DNA of 64,000 nt from an uncultured Candidatus Saccharibacteria bacterium (GCA_964365185.1 CAYIOP010000001.1:112673-176672); one strand, 5' to 3'; numbered from the stretch's first letter, positions 13,859 to 64,000 are shown. Translations and numbers: made by a program. The notes: a model not told the origin generated them from the letters alone.

Positions 13859-14051
13859 AAGAATTAGGCGTTAAGTTTTTCCTCCGAAAGAGGATCCGCC
13901 TCTGGCGGAAAGCGGGAAAGTGTTAGGGGTTAAGTTTATATTAATAATTGTGGCTCGGCAATTTGGGGGTTGCTTAGATTGACAAGGTAATTAGAATTCT
14001 TTATTCTTTTTATTAGTAAACAAGTGAAAATTTAATAGAACTGGAGGGAAT

Positions 14052-16205: not shown

Positions 16206-17516
16206 TCATAGAATTTTGCCACGAAGTCGGCGGTGGTAGGCAATGGCAAATCTGTGGGCTTCGTCACGGATTTGGATAAGGGTTTTGGGTTCAATGCCAG
16301 CTGGCATTTTGCCGATAAGTTCGTTTTTCTTGCGCTCTGGGCCTTTAGCTAAACCAATGACCGGCATAAATAAGTTAAGTTTGTTTAGAACTGATTTGGC
16401 CGCGTTTACCTGTCCCCTACCACCGTCGATTAAAATTAAATCTGGGTGCGGCCAGTTGTTTTTAAAACGGCGAGTTAAAATTTCTTTAATCATAGCAGTG
16501 TCATCTTGACCTTGAACCGCTCGAATTTTGAATTTGCGATATTCGTTTTTATCGGGCCGAAAAGTGTTTCCTCCAAAGGCGGATCCTCCTTTGGAGGAAA
16601 AAACCACCATTCCACCCACTGCGGCGGTGCCGGAAATTTGAGAGATGTCGTACCCCTCAATACGTTGTTTAGGGTTTAGCCAATAGCCACTAGGGTTTAG
16701 GGAATTATTCTCCTTGATGAGGGCGATGTCGTTGATGTGCTTGAGGCCAAAGATTTGGCGGCGGATTTTTTCTGCTTTTTCAAATTCCAGCTTTTCGCTT
16801 AGTTGTTTCATCTCTGCCTCAAGGTTGCGAATAACTCTGGATTTTTTGCCGGCTAGAAAAAGTTTGAGGTTATGAATGATTTTTTTATATTCAGTTTCAC
16901 TTATCGCGTCCACGCAGACACCCGGGCAATTACCAATTTGAAAATCAAAGCAGGGACGGCTGACGCCTACATGATGTGAATCTGCTAATCTATGCAAATG
17001 CCGCAAATTGCGAATAGTTCGTTTTTTTAATTCTTCTTCGGAGTGAGTGTTCCATGGGAAAATTTGGCGAATGAGTTTTAATGATTCACGGACATCTCGG
17101 GCAGAGAGAAAGGGACCGTAGATTTGGCTGTATTTCCCTTTTTCCCCGGCAATGTCTTTGCCACGAGTTAGAACGAGGCGGGGAAATTTTTCTCCGCCTT
17201 TGGCGGAGGTAATCGCAAAATATATGAAACTTCGGTCGTCTTTTTCTAAGACATTGTAGAGCGGCTGATGTTTTTTGATGAGCTCTGATTCTAAAATCAG
17301 CGCCTCAAGCGCGGTGTCAGCTTTTTTGAAATCAATTTTTTTGACTTGAGAAATGAGTTTTTCAATTCGGTAGTCGTGGCTTTTCTGAAAATAACTTGAA
17401 ACGCGGCGCTTTAGATTGCCGGCTTTGCCGATATAGAGAATTTTCCCGTTCGTGTTTTTCATCAAGTAAACGCCGGGAGTGTCGGGAAGTTTTTGGTAGA
17501 GAGTGGTTTTAGTCAT
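16206..17516 (-). CDS. uvrC: Excinuclease ABC subunit C. Short form of 436 aa with no C-terminal (HhH)2 domain
   Basis: GIY-YIG N-domain (YLMKNTNGKILYIGKAGNLKRRVSSYF), a Cys-rich UvrBC region, and an RNaseH-like endonuclease domain ending IRDEAHRFAIAYHRRLR. Confidence 0.85.
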   Translation of the reverse strand: MTKTTLYQKLPDTPGVYLMKNTNGKILYIGKAGNLKRRVSSYFQKSHDYRIEKLISQVKKIDFKKADTALEALILESELIKKHQPLYNVLEKDDRSFIYFAITSAKGGEKFPRLVLTRGKDIAGEKGKYSQIYGPFLSARDVRESLKLIRQIFPWNTHSEEELKKRTIRNLRHLHRLADSHHVGVSRPCFDFQIGNCPGVCVDAISETEYKKIIHNLKLFLAGKKSRVIRNLEAEMKQLSEKLEFEKAEKIRRQIFGLKHINDIALIKENNSLNPSGYWLNPKQRIEGYDISQISGTAAVGGMVVFSSKGGSAFGGNTFRPDKNEYRKFKIRAVQGQDDTAMIKEILTRRFKNNWPHPDLILIDGGRGQVNAAKSVLNKLNLFMPVIGLAKGPERKKNELIGKMPAGIEPKTLIQIRDEAHRFAIAYHRRLRGKIL

Positions 17517-20797: not shown

Positions 20798-20827
20798 GTC
20801 CTCCGAAGGAGGATCCTCCTTTGGAGG
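20798..20827. repeat. 30-nt GGAGG double-hairpin palindrome TCCTCCGAAGGAGGA+TCCTCCTTTGGAGGA, upstream of uvrA
   Basis: Two adjacent 6-bp-stem hairpins that are mutually complementary. Family members at 13880-13909, 16569-16598, 23530-23559 and 42136-42165. Confidence 0.7.
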
Positions 20828-20913
20828 AAATGTTGCGAATTTATTTGGATTTGACATTTTTAGGGTTGTGGTGTATGCTTTGAGTAGTTAATTAAATTAA
20901 GTTTGGAGGAGCT

Positions 20914-23493: not shown

Positions 23494-23616
23494 TTTTAAA
23501 AGCGTAATACTAATATACAAATATGTGTGTCCTCCGAAGGAGGATCCTCTCTTGGAGAAAATGATACAAATAATGTAATCAACTAGAAGCGGATAAACGC
23601 GGATTGAAAATTGCCC

Positions 23617-42113: not shown

Positions 42114-42135
42114 GGCCCTATCGTCTAATGGCTAG
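42114..42135 (+). repeat. 22-nt duplicate of the 5' end of tRNA-Glu (GGCCCTATCGTCTAATGGCTAG)
   Basis: Exact copy of tRNA positions 1-22 (42427-42448). The GIY-YIG gene lies between this copy and the intact tRNA. Confidence 0.85.
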
Positions 42136-42181
42136 CCCTCCGGAGGAGGGTCCTCCTTCGGAGGAGACGCACAAAGATGAA

Positions 42182-56738: not shown

Positions 56739-57206
56739 CTAGCGCGCCGAAATCAAGGCGAGCGGGTAACGTTTATTTAAAATCGAAAGCCAGGCCAAGA
56801 AACGGGATTTAAATTCAAAAAGATTTTCTGAGAATTGAGTTTGGGATTTTTGTGAATATCGAATGAGTTTGAGCTTTATCTTGGCCGAAATCAAGGCGCC
56901 AATAATTAATGAGAAAGCAATGAGTAAAAGCGCGAAGATGCCGGATTGGTTCAAATTGGCCTGAATGGAATTTTGGAGATTGCCGAAGTGCTCCAAGGTA
57001 GAGCTAATGGGGTCAACAACTTGGGCGCAGGTACTCGACAAATCAAAAAGACAGGAATGATGAGTAGCGTGACTTTCGTGGGCTATGCTCGAAAAACCGA
57101 GGATGCTGACGGTTAAAAAAGCCAGAAGAATTATTAACCCTTGGGGTTTCATTAGTTTTATTTTATCCCTGTAGCGTGGAAAGTCAAATAATAAGATATT
57201 AGTCAA
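56739..57206 (-). CDS. Hypothetical membrane protein with a His-rich segment
   Basis: Two TM helices and an HESHATHHSCLFDLSSTCAQ segment. The start may be the internal Met. Confidence 0.4.
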   Translation of the reverse strand: MTNILLFDFPRYRDKIKLMKPQGLIILLAFLTVSILGFSSIAHESHATHHSCLFDLSSTCAQVVDPISSTLEHFGNLQNSIQANLNQSGIFALLLIAFSLIIGALISAKIKLKLIRYSQKSQTQFSENLFEFKSRFLAWLSILNKRYPLALISAR

Positions 57207-57798
57207 TCGGGACTAATTCACCGGCTTTAAGCCGGGCGTAGAAGCTTTTGGCGATACTGGGACTCTCCGAAAAAGGTTCATCTGGCGCGCGGTCAGCGTA
57301 ATTGGCTATCACTTGCCCATTTTTGATTTCAACCATTTGGGGAGCAATGCGGTCGCCAATCCAAATGGCATTGGTGCCAGTATATTTTCCATTATTGTTT
57401 ATGGCTACGGCCAAATAGTAAAAAGTGCCGGTGCCGCCGGGATTTTGCTGAATGAAGAAAGCGGCGTCGTTGTCGCCGTCAGCGTCGAGATCACCCGTGG
57501 TCGGCACACTGAAAATCCTGGTTTCAATCTTAGTGGCTGAACCCGGCTCAATTTCTTTCTCCGATTCACCGTTTATAAAAATGTATTTCTCGCTTTCAAT
57601 AATATAGGTGGCGTTCAGCGGGTCAGCGGCGGCAGGGGTATCGTCTAGATTTTCGATATCGGGAGTTTCTGAACTATCTTTGCTAAAATACCAAATTCCA
57701 GCAGCAATCACTACAATAACTAACGGAATTAAAATTTTCTTCGAAAATGATGTTTGAGTATCCATGGGGTTAATTTTACGCTTATTTCCAAAGTCCAA
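57199..57798 (-). CDS. TM-anchored hypothetical secreted protein
   Basis: 199-aa ORF with a TM at residues 20-40 and a D-rich region (DLDADGDNDAAF). Confidence 0.45.
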   Translation of the reverse strand: MDFGNKRKINPMDTQTSFSKKILIPLVIVVIAAGIWYFSKDSSETPDIENLDDTPAAADPLNATYIIESEKYIFINGESEKEIEPGSATKIETRIFSVPTTGDLDADGDNDAAFFIQQNPGGTGTFYYLAVAINNNGKYTGTNAIWIGDRIAPQMVEIKNGQVIANYADRAPDEPFSESPSIAKSFYARLKAGELVPID

Positions 57799-58198
57799 GG
57801 ATTAAACCAAAGGCGATGAAATTAATGAGTTGGTAGCCAGCTTGAATTAGAAACCTGGACCAGGAAACTTTTTTGGAGTCGTTGTTCCACATGGCACCGC
57901 TGGCGATAATCGGCATAACAAAAGCCGCCCAAATCCAGATTGAGTTTTCCAGACCCGAGGCGTCTTGTGAGCCCGAAATGTAATAAGCCAAAACCCACAC
58001 TTGAAAAAGGGTGAGTAGAAACTGGACGGCATAGAGCGGAGCGGCGCTCTTTTGCATTTTTTTTCTGGCTTCAACGTCGTCGGGATTCGCTCCCACAATT
58101 TCCATCCACTTTCGCCCAAAAATGGGCCCGTACCAAATGGCGCCGAGCGCCATCGAAAACACCGCGCAAACAATTACCGCTAAATAGTTTATTGTCAT
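57782..58198 (-). CDS. DUF1761-like membrane protein
   Basis: 138 aa with four TM helices. Confidence 0.45.
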   Translation of the reverse strand: MTINYLAVIVCAVFSMALGAIWYGPIFGRKWMEIVGANPDDVEARKKMQKSAAPLYAVQFLLTLFQVWVLAYYISGSQDASGLENSIWIWAAFVMPIIASGAMWNNDSKKVSWSRFLIQAGYQLINFIAFGLILGLWK

Positions 58199-58302
58199 AT
58201 TGATATTTTAATGGTTTTTATAAAAAGTCACGCTTGATATTATCGACCAATAGTTATATTGAAATTATAACAGTTTTTTAACAATGTGTATTGAATAGAA
58301 AA

Positions 58303-58608
58303 TTAGGCCATGATTCGAATTCGAAAAATAATATCATCCTCGTTTCCAAACCCTTCTTTTTTGCGTACTTGAGCTTTAAGAGGCAAAAGATATGTATCGG
58401 ATTTTTGGTCTGGAAAAATTGAGGTTTTCCAAGTAGTTTTACCGATTACAACAATAACTGGTAAAGATCCAAATCCTCGACTTACTTTTCCAAAATTTTC
58501 TTTTATTTCTTTGGCTTCTTTTTTAGGAATACTGACGAAATGCCATCCGGCCATACCGGGATAGAGCCAAACTCTGGTTTTGATTTTATATTCCTTTTTT
58601 TGAATCAT
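58303..58608 (-). CDS. DUF1905-like protein
   Basis: 101 aa starting YKIKTRVWLYPGMAGWHFVSIP. Confidence 0.5.
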   Translation of the reverse strand: MIQKKEYKIKTRVWLYPGMAGWHFVSIPKKEAKEIKENFGKVSRGFGSLPVIVVIGKTTWKTSIFPDQKSDTYLLPLKAQVRKKEGFGNEDDIIFRIRIMA

Positions 58609-58632
58609 AACTCAATAAAAAACGATTTTGGT

Positions 58633-58917
58633 TTATTCTAATGTTCTCAAGAACTTGAGAATAGTTAAACCAAGAGGTGAAAGTTTGTGGCGAATGCTAT
58701 TGCCATCTGATCTTTTTAAAATCAGGCCGGCGATGGCCAATCGCCGAATGTGTTCGGAGGCGGTTTTGAAGTTAAGGTGGAGTTCGTTCGAAATATCAAT
58801 AACTGAAAGTTCTGGTTTATTATTTAAAAGTCCCAGAATTTCAATTCGCCGGTGGTTGGAAAAACCCCGAACCAATCTTTCTAATCTAAAATATTTTGTC
58901 CTTTTCCCCTCTTCCAT
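58633..58917 (-). CDS. ArsR/SmtB-family metalloregulatory repressor
   Basis: Winged HTH HRRIEILGLL...LSVIDISNEL...ASEHIRRLAIAGLI. Confidence 0.7.
   Translation of the reverse strand: MEEGKRTKYFRLERLVRGFSNHRRIEILGLLNNKPELSVIDISNELHLNFKTASEHIRRLAIAGLILKRSDGNSIRHKLSPLGLTILKFLRTLE
58636..58664. promoter_or_regulatory. Second related palindrome TATTCTAATGTTCTCAAG-AA-CTTGAGAATAG, overlapping the arsR 3' end and just upstream of the DUF1905 gene
   Basis: Shares the ATTCTAATGTTCT half-site with the 58952 site. Confidence 0.45.
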
Positions 58918-58951
58918 ATCTATTCCTGATTATACTATACCAAGTTCATCT

Positions 58952-58979
58952 ATTCTAATGTTCTTGAGAACATTAGAAT
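58952..58979. promoter_or_regulatory. Perfect 12-4-12 palindrome ATTCTAATGTTC-TTGA-GAACATTAGAAT: candidate ArsR/SmtB operator over the arsR promoter
   Basis: Sits 35-62 nt upstream of the arsR ATG. A TATAAT lies 9-14 nt upstream of the ATG. The TGTTC-N-GAACA core resembles SmtB/CzrA-type operators. Confidence 0.55.
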
Positions 58980-59070
58980 AGATGAAGGGGTGGGGCGGGG
59001 GTGATAAGAGGAGAAAAACAAAAACCGCCGCACGAGGTGTGGGCGGTTTTTGTTTTGTGCTTAGTGTTTT

Positions 59071-59268
59071 TTAAGCGCGGGAGACGTTAGTCGCGGCCGG
59101 GCCTTTGTCGCCATCGACAACTTCAAAAGTGACGGTATCGCCAACTTTGAGTTCATCGAAGGTAACACCTTGCAACTCCTTTGAATGGAAGAAAAGATCC
59201 TTGGCTTCGCCTTCGCGAGCAATGAATCCAAATCCCCTATCAGTCAGAGTCTTAATTGTACCTGTCAT
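59071..59268 (-). CDS. Cold-shock protein (CspA family)
   Basis: TGTIKTLTDRGFGFIAREGEAKDLFFH contains the RNP1/RNP2 motifs. Confidence 0.9.
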   Translation of the reverse strand: MTGTIKTLTDRGFGFIAREGEAKDLFFHSKELQGVTFDELKVGDTVTFEVVDGDKGPAATNVSRA

Positions 59269-59405
59269 TGATTTGTCTTTTTGTTGCTTTTTTGCTGCTT
59301 AGAAATCCGACTACATCTCTTAAACCTGCTTCTCTAGTATACTCTTATATTTCGACTTTGTCCATAGGGGGTGGAATTTAGGCCTATATTTCATATTAAG
59401 CCGCC

Positions 59406-59439
59406 CTCATTCCAGTGTTCTTAAAAACATTGGAATGAG
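59406..59439. promoter_or_regulatory. Third related palindrome CTCATTCCAGTGTTCTT-AAAA-ACATTGGAATGAG, upstream of the cold-shock gene
   Basis: 14-bp arms with one mismatch and a TGTTC...GAACA-like core. Confidence 0.4.
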
Positions 59440-59462
59440 GCAGGGATGGTTAGTAGTTTAAA

Positions 59463-59531
59463 CAACATTCTCACATTCTTCCTCCTTCGCTCTTAAGCTA
59501 CGGATGGACAGGTCAGAATGTGAGAATGTTG
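59463..59531 (-). terminator. Long hairpin with a 17-bp perfect stem, CAACATTCTCACATTCT...AGAATGTGAGAATGTTG. Likely terminator of the lexA-M-R-X block; a degenerate copy lies at 14696-14775
   Basis: Sits directly after the stop of the 59543 gene. On the minus strand the stem is followed by UUUAAAC. The related copy also follows a minus-strand gene's stop, at 14775. Confidence 0.45.
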
Positions 59532-59542
59532 CGGCGAGAGAG

Positions 59543-59935
59543 TTATCTCTCCCATTCTTTGATGTCAGGGGAAAAGTCGAGTTGGTAGTCAGGAATACCT
59601 AATGAAATACCAAATTTTGTGACTTCGTTGTATTGCTCGTTTTTACTTCTATCAACTTTAAAAACTTTGTTGCGGAAAATAATATAGTGGGTGGTGTTAT
59701 TTTTGAAGTCAACGTACCAGGAAGAATGTTCGCTATCCAGCGACTGGCTTATTTTTGTGGCAATGTTTTCGGCTTGGTCTTCAGGAATTTCAATAGTATG
59801 AAGCGTCCACTGGTTTAGCCAAGGAGTTTTATGTTCGTCGGTGACTTTTTCAACTTTGGTGCTTAAAATTTTGATATCTTTAAGAACCTCTTTATTTTCT
59901 AAACTTTCTTCAATAATTGTTCCGAGGTGGGGCAT
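59543..59935 (-). CDS. Hypothetical protein (130 aa), last gene of the lexA-M-R block
   Basis: ORF starts 25 nt after the endonuclease gene. No recognisable motifs. Confidence 0.5.
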   Translation of the reverse strand: MPHLGTIIEESLENKEVLKDIKILSTKVEKVTDEHKTPWLNQWTLHTIEIPEDQAENIATKISQSLDSEHSSWYVDFKNNTTHYIIFRNKVFKVDRSKNEQYNEVTKFGISLGIPDYQLDFSPDIKEWER

Positions 59936-59960
59936 GGGGATAACTTAAACTTGTTTTGCT

Positions 59961-60758
59961 CTAAAAACTTTTTAGAAAATCATTAAGTAAAAGCGAGCTT
60001 AGGGCGATTTGATTATTGGATAGATTCCTAACTGTTTGATATAAATTTTTAGCTTTTCTAGCAGCTTTATTCGCTGAAAGCCAGACTACTCCATCAATCA
60101 CGGCTATTCTGATGGTTTTTTTATCTTTCTTCTTAATAAAATTTATTGTCTCTCTAAAACTTTTATCTTGAGTTCCTCCACTGGTGGAAATAAATTTTGC
60201 TTCTCCGATTACAAATTTATCTCCCACTTTAAATACTAAATCTAAGCCCTTTGGTCCTTTGTATCCTAATTTTTTATGAGCAAATTCTTTAAGAGCTTTG
60301 TCTCCTCCGGCTAAAATTGCTACTTGACTTTTGGTGGTTAAAAAATTATCTGGTTTTAATATTGGATAATTTAATTTATATAACCACTTTTGAAACATTT
60401 GCCCCATCTGGCGAGACGACGATGAAGGACGCAGAGATCCATCGATAATTCCCTCAAGCCCTGTTCTGAAAAGACGCTCGCTAATTCTTTTCGTTGTTGC
60501 AGGATTTTTGTCTAAAGCTTTAGGATCTTTCCTTATAAACCCAACATAAGGATCATCAAATGGAAAACGTTCTAATTCAAGTAGGGTTAAAATAAGTTCT
60601 TTTTTATTTTTGTTTTTGAATGCGACTTCTATGTCCTTCCTCTTTTTTTGATTAATCTCTCGTCCTACTCCAATATTGACTGGATAGACATTACTTAATT
60701 TATCTAAGTATCCGTTCGAGTTAGCTAACTCAATACTTTTCTTTATCCAGGTATTCAT
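59961..60758 (-). CDS. Putative type II restriction endonuclease (PD-(D/E)xK fold)
   Basis: PD-D/ExK-like core GLDLVFKVGDKFVIGEAKF. The start was chosen at Met (MNTWIKK) at 60758, which gives an ATGA overlap with the methyltransferase stop. The longest ORF extends to 60857. Confidence 0.5.
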   Translation of the reverse strand: MNTWIKKSIELANSNGYLDKLSNVYPVNIGVGREINQKKRKDIEVAFKNKNKKELILTLLELERFPFDDPYVGFIRKDPKALDKNPATTKRISERLFRTGLEGIIDGSLRPSSSSRQMGQMFQKWLYKLNYPILKPDNFLTTKSQVAILAGGDKALKEFAHKKLGYKGPKGLDLVFKVGDKFVIGEAKFISTSGGTQDKSFRETINFIKKKDKKTIRIAVIDGVVWLSANKAARKAKNLYQTVRNLSNNQIALSSLLLNDFLKSF

Positions 60759-60759
60759 A

Positions 60760-61953
60760 TCACGAAAACAATACTCCTGTTTTTCTAGATTCGATAGGTA
60801 ATTGACCGAGAATCTTAGTGAAGTAAAGATAATTAATAAATTTATAAGTAAAATCAAACGATATTCTTTTTCTATCTTTGTCGCGGTAATTAGTTAAGAA
60901 GAGCGAAAATTGATCGTTTCTAAGTTGATTTATTTCTTTATTGAATAAATCAATTATTTTCTCTTGTATGTTTATGCTTAATTTATTCGAGTCGGAAATT
61001 AAATAAATCATATGCCTTGAGGTTGGTTTACTGATAAGGCATTTAACTCCGTGTTTTCTTATATCTTCTAAAGCAATTTTTCCATTTTCGCTACCACTAT
61101 CAATAGCTTTAAGAAACATAATATTAGAATTTATAATTTTTTTGAGAGAACTAGATACCTTAACTTCCTTTTTATTTTTAATGTGATTATAGGCGGCCTG
61201 AATTTTATATTGACCCGATTGAATATCACTTTCCACTAATCTTCTTATTTTTAGATGATTATCAACTATATTAATCGGATTTATTATTCTTCCGCCAATT
61301 GTCCAATGAAATTTTTTTTCAAGAAAGATTTTTGTTGAATTTTTTTCCGGGAAAAAATTAGTTTCTACTTCTTGATTTTCTGGATTATCACTCTTTCTAA
61401 TTGATCGATAATAAAAAGTTATAACATTAGAAGTGGTATCCGGGAAAACTTGCTGTTTAAAATAATTGATCTTAACTATCCTAAATTTTTCAAAGAATAA
61501 ATTTCGAATTTTACGAGAATTTTCGGCTGATAGAAAATTTATTGGAATTACTACGATTCCCTCCTTACTGTTAAGAATTGAATTTAAAGAAATCTGGTAC
61601 AAATCCTCAAACCCGCTACTTTTAAAATATTTTTCTTTAGTTTCTTTATCGGCTTTATTGATATTTAAATAGGGTGGATTTGTTACTATAAAATCATATT
61701 TTCTTTTCTCTTTTAAGCTGTCGCCATAAAAAATTATGCGATTATCGACTAAATTTTTATCAATCTCAAACCCTGCTACTGTTTTAGCGCCATTATTCCT
61801 TGCCCAAGATAAAAGATCTCCTGAGCCAGCGAATGGATCGGATATATTTTTATTAACCACAAATTTCTCTAGTCCTTGTAATACATAGTTTGAATTAACT
61901 GTAAAAAACTGACCTAATTGTTTTTTAAATTGTACGGTTGTTTCTGCTTGCAT
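60760..61953 (-). CDS. N6-adenine-specific DNA methyltransferase (FxGxG before NPPY; gamma-class-like)
   Basis: LGQFFT, motif I DPFAGSGDLL, motif IV TNPPY, and a long C-terminal target-recognition region. Confidence 0.8.
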   Translation of the reverse strand: MQAETTVQFKKQLGQFFTVNSNYVLQGLEKFVVNKNISDPFAGSGDLLSWARNNGAKTVAGFEIDKNLVDNRIIFYGDSLKEKRKYDFIVTNPPYLNINKADKETKEKYFKSSGFEDLYQISLNSILNSKEGIVVIPINFLSAENSRKIRNLFFEKFRIVKINYFKQQVFPDTTSNVITFYYRSIRKSDNPENQEVETNFFPEKNSTKIFLEKKFHWTIGGRIINPINIVDNHLKIRRLVESDIQSGQYKIQAAYNHIKNKKEVKVSSSLKKIINSNIMFLKAIDSGSENGKIALEDIRKHGVKCLISKPTSRHMIYLISDSNKLSINIQEKIIDLFNKEINQLRNDQFSLFLTNYRDKDRKRISFDFTYKFINYLYFTKILGQLPIESRKTGVLFS

Positions 61954-61969
61954 ATTTTTAGCGTATCTT

Positions 61970-62608
61970 TTACTTTATTGACTTCCAGGAACCGTTTTTG
62001 AGAACCGAGATGACTTTTCCTTTTAGTTCCATTTTGTCAGTAAATAGAATAATTTTATGCTTTGGGTTTTCGGGCTTTAAGTAGACGTAAGGCGGCTTAT
62101 CGTCCGAGATAAATCTTTTTATAGTGGAACCATCCTCGATACTTGCTAATACAATATCACCGGAAACAAATTCTTTTTGAGATTTTACTAAAACCGCATC
62201 GCCGTCGTCGATGCCGGCGTTAATCATTGAGTCGCCAGAAACTTTTAAAACAAAAACTTCGTCTTTTAGAAAAGACACATCGGATGTTGATGTGGTTTCC
62301 CATTCTCCGGAAATTTCTACCATTTCAAGTGGGGTGCCAGCTTTAGTGATTCCTAAGTTAGATATGAGCGGAGAAAATCCTAAAGTTTTAAATCCAGCAA
62401 AAGTGATTTTTAAACTTCGAGCAAATGAATCTCTATTTATTAATCCCGTTTGCTCAAGTTTTTTTAGGAGATCTAGAACAGATTGATTAGAGGAAACACC
62501 CAAATACCCTCTCATTTCTTCTAGGGTTGGCGAATATCCATTATCTCGTGTGTGTTCGTAAATTAGTTGGAGTAGTTCTTTTTGACGGTCCGTTATAAGG
62601 CCTTCCAT
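61970..62608 (-). CDS. lexA: LexA repressor (wHTH + S24 peptidase)
   Basis: N-terminus LITDRQKELLQLIYEHTRDNGYSPTLEEMRGYLGVSSNQSVLDLLKKLEQTGLI (LexA wing-helix). Cleavage-site-like KAG, catalytic Ser in VSGDSM, and Lys in TIKRF. Confidence 0.85.
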   Translation of the reverse strand: MEGLITDRQKELLQLIYEHTRDNGYSPTLEEMRGYLGVSSNQSVLDLLKKLEQTGLINRDSFARSLKITFAGFKTLGFSPLISNLGITKAGTPLEMVEISGEWETTSTSDVSFLKDEVFVLKVSGDSMINAGIDDGDAVLVKSQKEFVSGDIVLASIEDGSTIKRFISDDKPPYVYLKPENPKHKIILFTDKMELKGKVISVLKNGSWKSIK

Positions 62609-62614
62609 AATTAA

Positions 62615-62642
62615 ATTATAAACTGACCTTTTGGTCAGTCAA
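62615..62642 (-). promoter_or_regulatory. lexA promoter with an embedded palindromic operator ACTGACC-TTTT-GGTCAGT
   Basis: On the minus strand: TTGACT (62642-62637), a 16-nt spacer containing the palindrome (62622-62639), TATAAT (62620-62615), then ATG 6 nt later (leaderless). This is the classic autoregulatory layout. Confidence 0.6.
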
Positions 62643-62814
62643 TGTGGATAACTTTTTGAATATGCCCTTTAGGCGGGTTCGTTCAACTGGCTGGGGGGTG
62701 GAAGTAAAAAAAGCCCTGAATTTTTGGGAAAGACAGGACTCGTTGAGTCAAATTTAGAAAAAAATAAGGGGTTGCTTGTGGCAACCCCTTTTTGTTTCCT
62801 TTCTAATCTCGCGA

Positions 62815-63495
62815 TTATTGAATCGCTGTGTGAATCCTTCTTAAAGCACCTACCGGATCGGCAGCGTACATAATTGGACTGCCGCAGATTATAACCTCGG
62901 CTTTTTTCTCCTTGGCTACTGCAGGTTCGATTTTCTGCTTATGTCGATCATCAGCATAAGCAGAATCTCTTACGCCCGTGGCCCATTTTGGGATATCGAG
63001 CGCGGCAACAGCATCTAAAGCGGTGCCTGGAAGGATGGAGCCATCACAACCAACATCGATAGTTGTTTGAGTCAGGTGGTGGACTAAATCCACGAAAGAG
63101 CGTTTGAAATGTTTCCAGCAGTAGTCGTCGTCGAAGTGGGATAAAACCGTAACTCCGAGCACTTTGGTTTTTGAACTGCGGGTAGCTTCGATAACCTTGG
63201 GAAGAAGTGAATCAGCAAGAGCGTAGACGTTGAAGAAATCGACTTCATACCAAACCAGAGCTTTGGCTATATCAACCATAGTTCTGGTTCCGTTGCACAT
63301 TTTCAAGTCAACGAAAATGGGACGTTTGTAGTATTTGATTAATCTGAAAGCTCTTTCATAGCCGTGACGAAGGATATAATCAAGATTAATCTTTATCCCA
63401 AAATGAAGTCCGGTGCCGCAAAGAATCTGAAGGATGTCTAGAGTTTTTTCTTCGTCGCCAGAAAGATTGTCCGCAGCCACATAAAGAGTGGTCAT
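62815..63495 (-). CDS. Orotidine 5'-phosphate decarboxylase family protein (PyrF-like, with Asp-to-Asn in the DxKxxD motif)
   Basis: HFGIKINLD, FVDLKMCNGTRT (canonical DxKxxD reads DLKMCN), ATGVRDS, VIICGSPIMYAADP. Confidence 0.55.
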   Translation of the reverse strand: MTTLYVAADNLSGDEEKTLDILQILCGTGLHFGIKINLDYILRHGYERAFRLIKYYKRPIFVDLKMCNGTRTMVDIAKALVWYEVDFFNVYALADSLLPKVIEATRSSKTKVLGVTVLSHFDDDYCWKHFKRSFVDLVHHLTQTTIDVGCDGSILPGTALDAVAALDIPKWATGVRDSAYADDRHKQKIEPAVAKEKKAEVIICGSPIMYAADPVGALRRIHTAIQ

Positions 63496-64000
63496 TGCGT
63501 TCCTCCAGTCAACACAGGTTTAAGTCCCCTTTTTTCTTGCCAACTCAAGGGATTAGCGAGAAATTCTCTGTAGGCAGAAATTGCTTCCGTAGAATGGGTT
63601 ACATGTTTCGCGGCGACATAGAGAAGTTCTTCTAATGTGAAAAGATGAATCATCTCGACACTGTGATTGTGAAGGGTTTTGATTGATTCAGGATTTCCGT
63701 AGAAAAGAATGCAGGCGGCGTGAGTAACCACGCAACCGGCATCTCGGACCGCCTCGGCACTGTTGGTTGTGGTCTCGGCAAAATTCACCAACTCTTCAAC
63801 AATCAAACCGTTACTCCCTTTGGAAATATTCGGATTGTCTTTATGGCCTACGAGAAGTTCTTGTTGCCCACCTTTTTTCCGAGTTCCGCGGGCGTAGACA
63901 AAAGGAACAGGTCGGCCGAGTAAAATTTCGAGATACTCACTTAGGACCCAGCCAGGAACTTGGCCGCCACTGACATTGCCGACGACAAAATCAATATCCG
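63492..64000 (-). CDS. Type I phosphoribosyltransferase (orotate PRTase-like). Partial; the 5' end runs past the window end
   Basis: The frame continues upstream of the listed ORF (the TTG was read as Met). A PRPP-motif-like segment GLIVEELVNFAETTTNSAEAV. Adjacent to the pyrF-like gene. Confidence 0.45.
   Translation of the reverse strand, partial: DIDFVVGNVSGGQVPGWVLSEYLEILLGRPVPFVYARGTRKKGGQQELLVGHKDNPNISKGSNGLIVEELVNFAETTTNSAEAVRDAGCVVTHAACILFYGNPESIKTLHNHSVEMIHLFTLEELLYVAAKHVTHSTEAISAYREFLANPLSWQEKRGLKPVLTGGTQ

What the first reader, a model, noticed from the sequence alone, without database searches (positions are those of the whole stretch)
59543..62660. lexA, an N6-adenine methyltransferase, a PD-(D/E)xK endonuclease and an unknown gene form one tight co-directional block behind a LexA-operator-containing promoter
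A bona fide LexA (wing-helix N-domain, AG cleavage site, Ser/Lys dyad) is followed after 16 nt by a gamma-class N6-adenine methyltransferase. Its stop overlaps (ATGA) the start of a PD-(D/E)xK nuclease. A 130-aa unknown ORF follows 25 nt later, and then a 17-bp-stem hairpin. The only obvious promoter is upstream of lexA: a consensus TTGACT/TATAAT with the palindrome ACTGACC-N4-GGTCAGT between -35 and -10. If the block is one transcript, a restriction-modification module is under SOS (LexA auto-)control, or LexA has been recruited as the controller of an R-M system. I am not aware of a described case of either. The operator differs from the GGAGG palindrome at the uvr genes, so two separate damage-related circuits may exist.
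Basis: partly seen in the sequence, partly recalled or inferred. Interest (0 to 1): 0.75.

Follow-up and report, generated by a model that had tools for sequence, protein, structure and literature searches.

The report
LexA repressor heads a restriction-modification operon
In this groundwater Patescibacteria genome the DNA-damage repressor gene lexA sits in front of a restriction-modification gene pair behind one LexA-operator promoter, and 49 of 50 related genomes show the same arrangement, so this lineage probably puts its restriction enzymes under DNA-damage control.

Summary

**The block (minus strand)**
- lexA is 61970-62608, a gamma-class N6-adenine methyltransferase 60760-61953, and a Tsp45I-family PD-(D/E)xK endonuclease 59961-60758.
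- They follow one promoter: TTGACT, 16 nt, TATAAT. Its spacer is filled by ACTGACC-N4-GGTCAGT.

**It recurs**
- This LexA clade is directly followed by, or fused to, a DNA methyltransferase or R-M system in 49 of 50 usable loci. None of 108 other lexA loci shows this.
- The usual cargo is a BsaXI-like RM+S system. The window's closest relative keeps the promoter and lexA but carries different cargo.
- The operator core GAC-N6-GTC sits between -35 and -10 in 42 of 54 loci. It is absent at uvrA, uvrB, uvrC and dinB in the window, and at recA in three relatives.
- A DnaA box flanks the promoter, and lexA is leaderless.

**Corrections**
- The 130-aa ORF is a widespread Patescibacteria protein with no consistent link to lexA or R-M.
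- The "GGAGG palindrome" at the uvr genes is a dispersed repeat.

**Reading**
LexA autoregulates a lexA-M-R operon, which makes restriction-modification DNA-damage-inducible. Binding, cleavage and co-transcription are inferred. The one paper that might have described this (Sánchez-Osuna 2017) was not readable.

The parts
62766..62790 (-). Intrinsic terminator of the upstream pyrF gene. It isolates the lexA promoter from upstream transcription.
   Evidence: A 10-11 bp GC-rich stem followed by a T-run. The pyrF product matches OMPdecase.
62643..62651 (-). DnaA-box consensus TTATCCACA, abutting the -35 hexamer.
   Evidence: Unique in the window. A box with at most 1 mismatch, in either orientation, lies within 150 nt upstream of lexA in 42/55 family loci, 6/10 canonical Patescibacteria loci and 4/94 loci from other phyla. 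The background is 0.05 per 160 nt.
62637..62642 (-). -35 hexamer TTGACT.
   Evidence: Promoter scan, 11 of 12 matches. TTGAC is conserved in related loci.
62622..62639 (.). LexA-type operator ACTGACC-N4-GGTCAGT, with core GACCAAAAGGTC. It fills the -35/-10 spacer and overlaps the -35 hexamer.
   Evidence: Unique in the window. The PWM score is 19 bits. The same core, GAC[CT]AWWW[AG]GTC, sits between -35 and -10 in 42/54 related lexA loci.
62615..62620 (-). -10 hexamer TATAAT, 6 nt before the lexA ATG, which implies a leaderless mRNA.
   Evidence: The distance from -10 to the start codon is 6-7 nt in 35 of about 52 family loci.
61970..62608 (-). lexA: winged-helix DNA-binding domain plus S24 self-cleaving domain.
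   Evidence: TIGR00498 scores 135.7 bits against a cut-off of 110.95. Pfam PF01726 and PF00717 both hit. A90-G91, S127 and K164 align to the E. coli cleavage site and catalytic dyad.
60760..61953 (-). Gamma-class N6-adenine DNA methyltransferase (M), starting 16 nt after the lexA stop.
   Evidence: Pfam Eco57I at 1e-10 and PADLOC MTase_II at 1e-16. The DPFAGSGDL motif precedes NPPY. It is 56-68% identical to the M genes paired with Tsp45I-family R genes in L176, L180 and L184. GC is about 27%, against about 37% for lexA.
59961..60758 (-). Type IIP restriction endonuclease (R) of the Tsp45I family with a PD-(D/E)xK fold. Its ATG lies 1 nt after the M stop (TGAtATG), which suggests translational coupling.
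59543..59935 (-). 130-aa conserved Patescibacteria protein of unknown function (X). It is adjacent and co-directional and may be read through, but it is not part of the R-M module.
59462..59532 (-). Long hairpin with an 18-bp stem, 11 nt after the X stop. It may mark the end of the transcription unit, although it is followed by only UU.
   Evidence: RNA fold -46.7 kcal/mol, z = -5.4.

Best explanation
The window holds a LexA-autoregulated operon, lexA-M-R.

**Layout (shown by sequence)**
- One sigma-70-type promoter sits just after the pyrF terminator.
- A DnaA box abuts its -35 hexamer. A LexA-type palindrome fills the 16-nt spacer and overlaps the -35 hexamer.
- The lexA start codon lies 6 nt after the -10 hexamer, so the mRNA is probably leaderless.
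- M starts 16 nt after lexA, and R starts 1 nt after the M stop.

**Mechanism (inferred)**
- A LexA dimer bound to the palindrome blocks RNA polymerase. This holds LexA, the methyltransferase and the endonuclease at a low, self-limited level.
- RecA bound to single-stranded DNA would trigger LexA self-cleavage at Ala90-Gly91. Such DNA could arise from phage infection, incoming DNA, replication trouble, or self-restriction.
- Cleavage would raise expression of M first, and then of the translationally coupled R.
- DnaA may add an input linked to replication.

**Evolution (shown by comparison)**
- This is one instance of an arrangement found across Patescibacteria. A distinct LexA clade heads an R-M operon, and the ancestral cargo is a BsaXI-like RM+S system.
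- In the window's lineage a Tsp45I-type M+R cassette replaced that cargo. The promoter and lexA stayed in place.
- The operator is not seen at recA, uvrA, uvrB, uvrC or dinB. This LexA therefore seems to work mainly as a DNA-damage-responsive controller of R-M, doing the job of a C protein, rather than as the master of a broad SOS regulon.
For: **The parts are what they seem**
- LexA, M and R identities, catalytic residues and fold.
- Promoter, operator and terminator layout.

**The linkage recurs**
- Of 50 distinct loci whose LexA is at least 41% identical and that have enough downstream sequence, 49 carry a DNA methyltransferase or R-M gene as the first or second downstream gene, or fused to LexA. 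Gaps are mostly between -26 and +26 nt.
- None of 108 other lexA loci does.
- The cargo kinds are:
  - HSDR_N_2+N6_Mtase "RM" plus an S subunit. The best PDB match is RM.BsaXI at 3e-33, and D113, E129 and K131 are invariant.
  - M plus a Tsp45I-family R: the window, L176-179 and L184.
  - An N6_N4 methyltransferase plus a TdeIII-family R.
  - LexA::methyltransferase fusions with MutH-like, HNH or BsaWI-like nucleases.

**The operator is conserved and local**
- It lies between -35 and -10 in 42/54 loci. Only 3 other sites occur in 506 kb, against a chance expectation of about 4.
- There is no operator at uvrA, uvrB, uvrC or dinB in the window, or upstream of recA in L116, L025 and L121.

**The cargo has been swapped**
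- Homology between the window and L004 (LexA 84% identical) runs exactly from the DnaA box to the lexA stop. It resumes only about 4 kb downstream.
- A relic of the RM gene's 5' end survives in L020.
- In the LexA tree, cargo types are interspersed.
- M-R has about 27-30% GC, against about 37% for lexA.

**Other points**
- One contig (L008) carries two LexA regulators. Each has its own R-M system and its own distinct operator.
- No full-length family member occurs in the viral contig collection.
Against: - There are no transcript, binding or cleavage data. Co-transcription rests on gap sizes, the lack of terminators, and recurrence.
- Weak promoter-like hexamers occur inside lexA and M. This is no more than chance predicts in AT-rich DNA, but an internal promoter cannot be excluded.
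- The same M-R pair occurs without lexA in L180-183, so LexA is not obligatory for this cassette.
- Only 64 kb of this genome and 10-20 kb around each relative were seen. Operators at distant SOS genes, or a second lexA, cannot be excluded.
- The three recA loci without an operator belong to the more divergent half of the clade.
- The clade shares its promoter architecture, including the DnaA box, with the canonical Patescibacteria lexA. It therefore descends from the resident SOS gene and may keep SOS targets elsewhere.
Confidence: 0.65

Rival explanations
1. LexA is the ordinary global SOS repressor, and R-M is only one member of its regulon. On this view the gene is the genome's single housekeeping lexA with a normal multi-gene SOS regulon elsewhere in the chromosome. 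The R-M genes simply ride in the lexA operon.
For: - LexA is canonical in every testable feature.
- The clade shares the DnaA-box, -35, operator and -10 layout with the canonical Patescibacteria lexA.
- recA lies directly upstream of lexA in L116, and uvrB is divergent from lexA in L114 with the operator in the shared spacer.
- lexA sits at a syntenic chromosomal position in the window and in L004.
Against: - There is no operator at uvrA, uvrB, uvrC or dinB in the window, or at recA in three relatives.
- Operator density outside the lexA promoters matches chance over 506 kb.
- Fusions of LexA to methyltransferases, and two LexA paralogues with different operators on one contig, point to dedicated control.
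Confidence: 0.22
2. The adjacency has no regulatory coupling. On this view the region downstream of lexA is merely an insertion hot spot for mobile R-M cassettes, and M-R is transcribed from its own promoter inside or after lexA.
For: - M-R has a foreign base composition.
- The cargo differs between close relatives.
- The cassette exists without lexA in L180.
- Promoter-like hexamers exist inside lexA (62211..62182) and inside M.
Against: - Gaps of 0-26 nt leave no room for an intergenic promoter.
- The linkage holds for 49 of 50 loci and about six unrelated R-M kinds.
- In-frame LexA::methyltransferase fusions arose with several methyltransferase classes.
- No terminator lies between lexA and M.
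Confidence: 0.08
3. LexA acts here as a constitutive autorepressor that does not respond to damage. On this view the protein only provides C-protein-like homeostatic control and establishment control of the R-M genes, and RecA-stimulated cleavage plays no role.
For: - Regulators of R-M systems usually serve establishment and homeostasis (review PMC3874152).
- The operon order, with the regulator first and M before R, would fit such a role.
Against: The Ala-Gly site and the Ser/Lys dyad are invariant or nearly so across the clade. That would not be expected if cleavage were dispensable. recA is present in related genomes.
Confidence: 0.05

Closest known systems
C-protein (controller)-regulated type II R-M systems, such as PvuII, Esp1396I, Kpn2I and Csp231I
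   Same: A dedicated DNA-binding regulator is encoded at the head of the R-M genes. It binds a palindrome in its own promoter and sets R and M levels. Related systems carry distinct operators, as with the two LexA/R-M pairs on L008. R-M regulation is reviewed in PMC3874152.
   Different: C proteins are small Xre-type HTH proteins that both activate and repress at C-boxes, and they have no signal-sensing domain. Here the regulator is a full LexA, with a winged helix and a self-cleaving S24 domain. It has a single operator in the -35/-10 spacer. It precedes M as well as R.
DNA-damage-responsive regulators of anti-phage operons: CapH/CapP, CapW/BrxR and CapK/CapS
   Same: A repressor encoded next to diverse, interchangeable immune operons is inactivated by a DNA-damage or ssDNA signal, which raises immune gene expression (bioRxiv 10.1101/2022.04.27.489752, PMC11662680, PMC13373217). 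CapK/CapS is also found next to some R-M systems.
   Different: The protein families and sensing routes differ: a metallopeptidase, a WYL domain or a kinase, against RecA-stimulated self-cleavage here. Those regulators are usually divergently transcribed, whereas lexA is the first gene of the operon. The two papers searched for the term (CapH/CapP preprint and CapK/CapS) do not mention LexA.
Canonical LexA/SOS regulons and LexA-controlled accessory modules (colicins, tisB, symE, integron integrases)
   Same: A bona fide LexA with an operator that overlaps its own promoter. An accessory and potentially toxic function is placed under LexA control.
   Different: The core SOS genes available here (recA, uvrA, uvrB, uvrC, dinB) lack the operator. 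The operator core is GAC-N6-GTC rather than the Cheo box GAAC-N4-GTTC. The regulated cargo is an R-M system. In the two R-M reviews checked, the 2013/14 one mentions LexA only in connection with toxin-antitoxin systems and the 2025 one not at all.
Methyltransferases with an N-terminal autoregulatory HTH domain (the M.SsoII/M.Ecl18kI type; from general knowledge, not tested here)
   Same: The LexA::methyltransferase fusions in related loci (L043, L114, L124, P0446, P0453, P0512) put the repressor and the methyltransferase in one polypeptide.
   Different: The fused regulator is a complete LexA with its cleavage site, so cleavage would detach the DNA-binding domain. The window itself has separate genes.

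Membership tests
LexA (TIGR00498 equivalog) | An N-terminal LexA winged-helix DNA-binding domain and a C-terminal S24 peptidase domain, scoring above the curated cut-off | tested here: met
   PF01726 at 2.9e-12, PF00717 at 4.6e-22, and TIGR00498 at 135.7 bits against a cut-off of 110.95.
LexA (TIGR00498 equivalog) | Ala-Gly cleavage site and Ser/Lys catalytic dyad | tested here: met
   A90-G91, S127 and K164 align with E. coli A84-G85, S119 and K156. G91, S127 and K164 are invariant and A90 is nearly invariant (at least 90%) in 26 homologues.
LexA (TIGR00498 equivalog) | Autoregulation through an operator in its own promoter | tested here: met
   A palindrome fills the -35/-10 spacer. It is conserved in 42/54 related loci. 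Binding itself was not tested.
LexA (TIGR00498 equivalog) | Controls a multi-gene SOS regulon (recA, uvr genes, translesion polymerases) | tested here: not met
   In the sequence available, there is no operator at uvrA, uvrB, uvrC or dinB in the window, at recA in L116, L025 or L121, or above chance in 506 kb of flanks. Whole genomes were not available.
LexA (TIGR00498 equivalog) | RecA-ssDNA-stimulated self-cleavage | not testable with these tools
   This needs biochemistry.
Type IIP restriction-modification system | A separate DNA methyltransferase with a SAM-binding motif and a catalytic (N/D/S)PP(Y/F) motif | tested here: met
   DPFAGSGDL and NPPY are present. Pfam Eco57I methylase at 1e-10 and PADLOC MTase_II at 1e-16.
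Type IIP restriction-modification system | An adjacent, separate restriction endonuclease | tested here: met
Type IIP restriction-modification system | A defined recognition sequence that is cut and methylated | tested here: inconclusive
   GTSAC, the Tsp45I site, is not avoided (51 observed, 50 expected). AGNCT is 7-fold avoided (19 observed, 135 expected). The link to this enzyme is unproven.
C-protein-controlled R-M system | A small Xre-type HTH controller protein with C-box operators | tested here: not met
   The regulator is a 212-aa LexA with a winged helix and an S24 domain, and it has a single palindrome. It works like a controller but does not belong to the C-protein family.
CapH/CapP, CapW and CapK/CapS immune-operon regulators | HTH plus metallopeptidase, a WYL domain, or a kinase plus repressor | tested here: not met
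   The Pfam, NCBIfam and PADLOC scans of LexA show only LexA and S24 domains. The resemblance is in logic only.

The most novel reading that the evidence does not exclude
In a large clade of Patescibacteria the SOS repressor has been repurposed. Its regulon has shrunk to its own operon. That operon serves as a fixed docking site for interchangeable R-M cassettes, and sometimes LexA is fused to the methyltransferase. Restriction-modification would then be the main DNA-damage-inducible function of these cells. A conserved DnaA box at the same leaderless promoter would add gating by DnaA.
Probability: 0.4. Interest if true: 0.85.

Novelty: new variant of a known kind. Interest (0 to 1): 0.74.

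Why it matters
- **For R-M biology.** R-M systems are usually thought to be constitutive, or controlled by their own C proteins or methyltransferases. A widespread lineage in which the RecA-sensing LexA heads R-M operons would add R-M to the defences that are switched up by DNA damage, as CBASS and BREX are through CapH/CapP or CapW. It would be a new mode of R-M regulation.
- **For SOS biology.** It would show an SOS regulon reduced to a single non-repair function in bacteria with minimal genomes.
- **For experiments.** The operator and promoter are compact and leaderless. Reporter assays, EMSA and cleavage assays can therefore be done in E. coli, even though the organisms themselves are uncultured.
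- **Extra leads.** The DnaA box and the cargo-swap pattern are testable. The first suggests a link between replication and defence. The second suggests that lexA anchors a small defence island.

Tried and rejected
- **Function of the 130-aa ORF.** It has no Pfam, NCBIfam or PADLOC family. The confident AF2 model gave only generic ferredoxin-like matches, with Z no higher than 5.5. One homologue sits right after a canonical lexA (L032), but three other contexts and all R-homologue loci lack the link. I therefore dropped it from the module.
- **Tsp45I specificity.** GTSAC is not avoided in the window. AGNCT is strongly avoided, but it is not clearly avoided around R homologues in other organisms, where samples are small. 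I kept this as a lead only.
- **Relics of the ancestral RM/S cargo in the window.** None were found.
- **Extra operator sites.** The only strong ones were L014:9190, inside the cargo, L002:168, inside rplJ, and L029:6410, upstream of a riboflavin synthase gene (which I guessed to be an FMN-riboswitch region). I judged these to be chance or unresolved.
- **Phage origin.** The viral contig collection holds only weak hits to the N-terminal domain.
- **Rfam.** There is nothing relevant in 57000-64000.
- **Literature.** Ten full-text searches found no description of LexA-controlled R-M. The key paper is Sánchez-Osuna, Barbé and Erill 2017, Environ Microbiol 19:3465. It could not be read, so prior description of the lexA-R-M operon or of the operator cannot be excluded.


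Full report
**1. What is in the window**

On the minus strand an intrinsic terminator (62766-62790) closes pyrF. Then comes a compact promoter. It reads TTATCCACA (62651-62643, the DnaA-box consensus), TTGACT (62642-62637), a 16-nt spacer, and TATAAT (62620-62615). The promoter matches the consensus at 11 of 12 positions, the best match in the region.

The palindrome ACTGACC-N4-GGTCAGT (62622-62639) fills the spacer and overlaps the -35 hexamer. It is unique in the 64-kb window. The lexA ATG (62608) lies 6 nt after the -10 hexamer.

The genes that follow are:
- **lexA (61970-62608).** It passes the NCBIfam LexA equivalog cut-off (135.7 against 110.95 bits) and has both Pfam domains. Ala90-Gly91, Ser127 and Lys164 align with the E. 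coli cleavage site and catalytic dyad. G91, S127 and K164 are invariant and A90 nearly invariant in 26 homologues.
- **The methyltransferase (60760-61953).** It starts 16 nt later. It has DPFAGSGDL before NPPY, which is the gamma-class order, and matches the Eco57I-type methylase domain and PADLOC MTase_II.
- **A 130-aa ORF (59543-59935).** It follows 25 nt later.
- **An 18-bp hairpin (59462-59532).** It has z = -5.4 but only a UU tail.

The scan flags only two weak 6-bp stems inside lexA and nothing between lexA and the end of the 130-aa ORF. The M-R pair has about 27-30% GC. lexA has about 37%, and the flanks have 40-50%.

The contig comes from Hainich groundwater (well H43, 0.1-µm fraction). 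The LexA homologues are from Patescibacteria.

**2. The arrangement recurs**

I collected lexA loci from one genome per species, from metagenomes, and by exact look-ups.

LexA proteins at least 41% identical to the window's form one clade. A long branch separates it from the "canonical" Patescibacteria LexA.

Of 50 distinct loci in this clade with enough downstream sequence, 49 carry a DNA methyltransferase or R-M gene. It is either the first or second gene after lexA, mostly with gaps between -26 and +26 nt, or it is fused in frame to LexA. None of 108 other lexA loci shows this. Those controls include canonical Patescibacteria, Bacillota and Actinomycetota. The single exception, L022, carries Bro-N and plasmid-like genes.

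The cargo falls into several kinds:
- **The dominant kind.** A protein of about 650 aa with HSDR_N_2 and N6_Mtase domains, plus an S subunit. Its best solved relative is RM.BsaXI (3e-33). The nuclease residues D113, E129 and K131 are invariant. Accessory genes are often wedged between RM and S, among them DUF4145, DUF3800, an OLD-like ATPase, a trypsin-like protease and an RnlA-like protein.
- **M plus a Tsp45I-family R.** Besides the window, this occurs twice more behind lexA. L176-179 lie in a different chromosomal setting, between an M50 peptidase gene and rpsL. L184 is the other case.
- **An N6_N4 methyltransferase plus a TdeIII-family R**.
- **LexA::methyltransferase fusions.** These are paired with MutH-like, HNH or BsaWI-like nucleases, and they involve several methyltransferase classes.

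**3. The promoter and operator are conserved**

In 42 of 54 clade loci a site of at least 14 bits lies within 260 nt upstream of lexA, mostly 13-30 nt upstream. Its core is GAC[CT]AWWW[AG]GTC, and it sits between a TTGAC -35 and the -10. Most of the other loci have degenerate versions. The window's palindrome scores 19 bits.

The start codon lies 6-7 nt after the -10 in 35 of about 52 loci, so lexA is typically leaderless.

A DnaA box (at most 1 mismatch, either orientation) lies within 150 nt upstream of lexA in:
- 42 of 55 clade loci;
- 6 of 10 canonical Patescibacteria loci;
- 4 of 94 loci from other phyla, which matches the background of 0.05.

The canonical Patescibacteria lexA has the same layout but a Cheo-like operator, GTGAACGNNCGTAT. 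The R-M-linked clade therefore descends from the resident lexA, and its operator has shifted.

**4. Is this a global SOS regulator or an R-M controller?**

The operator PWM finds no site at uvrA, uvrB, uvrC or dinB in the window. It finds none upstream of recA in L116, L025 or L121. Outside the lexA promoters it finds only 3 sites in 506 kb, where the control rate predicts about 4.

One contig (L008) carries two LexA regulators. A standalone LexA with RM+S uses the clade operator. A LexA::methyltransferase fusion next to a BsaWI-like nuclease uses a different direct-repeat operator. Both have a DnaA box. That resembles orthogonal controllers more than a single master regulator.

The caveat is that only fragments of each genome were seen.

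**5. The cargo is exchangeable and lexA is the anchor**

The closest relative, L004, has a LexA 84% identical to the window's. DNA homology with the window runs exactly from the DnaA box (window 62655) to the lexA stop. It resumes at a 199-aa gene (57199-57798), and then at pterin-4a dehydratase, mraZ and rsmH. Between those points L004 carries RM, DUF4145 and S, where the window carries M, R and other genes.

Other evidence points the same way:
- L020 keeps a 72-aa relic of the RM N-terminus between lexA and its newer methyltransferase/TdeIII cargo.
- In the LexA tree the non-RM+S cargos are scattered among RM+S lineages.
- The same M-R pair also exists without lexA, in L180-183.
- No full-length clade member is found in the viral contig collection.

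**6. The most likely mechanism**

The sequence and comparative evidence show one promoter, a conserved operator placed so as to occlude it, intact LexA cleavage residues, tight gene junctions, recurrent linkage, and fusions.

From this I infer the following. LexA represses its own operon, which keeps M and R low. RecA-ssDNA triggers LexA cleavage and raises M, then the coupled R. The signal could come from phage infection, incoming DNA, replication stress, or self-restriction. DnaA may add an input linked to replication.

Functionally this is a C-protein-like controller with a damage sensor. It parallels the logic of CapH/CapP, CapW and CapK/CapS.

**7.

- The 130-aa ORF has 1684 homologues across Patescibacteria at 67-78% identity, and it sits in varied contexts. 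It is frameshifted in one population variant. It is not part of the R-M module, although read-through is possible.
- The "GGAGG palindrome" at uvrA and uvrB is a double-hairpin repeat with at least five copies in the window. It is not a uvr-specific operator.

**8. Novelty**

In the two broad R-M reviews checked, the 2013/14 one mentions LexA only in connection with toxin-antitoxin systems and the 2025 one not at all. The immune-regulator papers searched for the term do not mention LexA. Ten full-text searches found no description of LexA-controlled R-M.

The one paper on the Patescibacteria SOS network (Sánchez-Osuna et al. 2017) could not be read. From memory alone I cannot say whether it reports this operon.

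I rate the finding a new variant of a known kind: damage-responsive control of a defence operon, and regulator-controlled R-M. Interest is about 0.74.

Noticed in passing
whole window; residual sites include 59248 and 60083: AGNCT is 7-fold under-represented (19 observed, 135 expected), by far the lowest of all 16 N-centred 5-bp palindromes. GTSAC, the Tsp45I site, is not avoided. The closest relative (L004/L005), which carries a different R-M, does not avoid AGNCT. This may be the specificity of the lexA-linked M/R pair.
   Followed up: partly
window 13879-13899, 16568-16599, 20798-20829, 23529-23549, 42135-42166: A dispersed double-hairpin repeat of about 32 nt (CCTCCAAAGGAGG-ATCC-TCCTTCGGAGGA). 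Two copies lie in the uvrA and uvrB leaders, and one lies inside the uvrC reading frame. It is absent from all 184 loci fetched at the time of that search. It looks like a REP/MITE-like element.
   Followed up: partly
window 62643-62651, and upstream of lexA in related loci: A perfect DnaA box abuts the lexA -35 hexamer. A DnaA box near the lexA promoter is conserved in both Patescibacteria LexA clades, in either orientation, but not in other phyla.
   Followed up: yes
window 62606-62620, and related loci: lexA appears to be leaderless. The start codon lies 6-7 nt after the -10 hexamer in about two thirds of the related loci.
   Followed up: yes
L002 8597-8999 (the same population as the window): In this contig variant the 130-aa ORF is broken by a 10-nt indel, and no gene was called there. 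The gene may therefore be dispensable, or this may be an assembly error.
   Followed up: no
L008 3045-4995 and 7970-10170: One contig carries two LexA-type regulators, each with its own R-M system and its own operator. The LexA::methyltransferase fusion has the direct repeat ATCTTCGGTA twice.
   Followed up: partly
L020 1557-1775: A 72-aa relic of the RM gene's N-terminus sits between lexA and a replacement methyltransferase/TdeIII cassette. It is a footprint of cargo exchange.
   Followed up: yes
L014 9190-9205: A second strong operator-like site (21 bits) lies inside a DUF3800 gene wedged in the RM+S cargo. It could be an internal LexA-controlled promoter, or it could be chance.
   Followed up: no
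window about 59395-59430 and 58945-58986: Two related long palindromes containing GTTY-N4-GAAC lie upstream of cspA and of the ArsR/MarR-like gene. They may be sites for that regulator.
   Followed up: no
L116 8886-10615; L114 7928-10000: In L116, recA sits directly upstream of lexA-RM. In L114, uvrB is divergent from a LexA::methyltransferase fusion, and the operator lies in the shared 140-nt spacer.
   Followed up: partly
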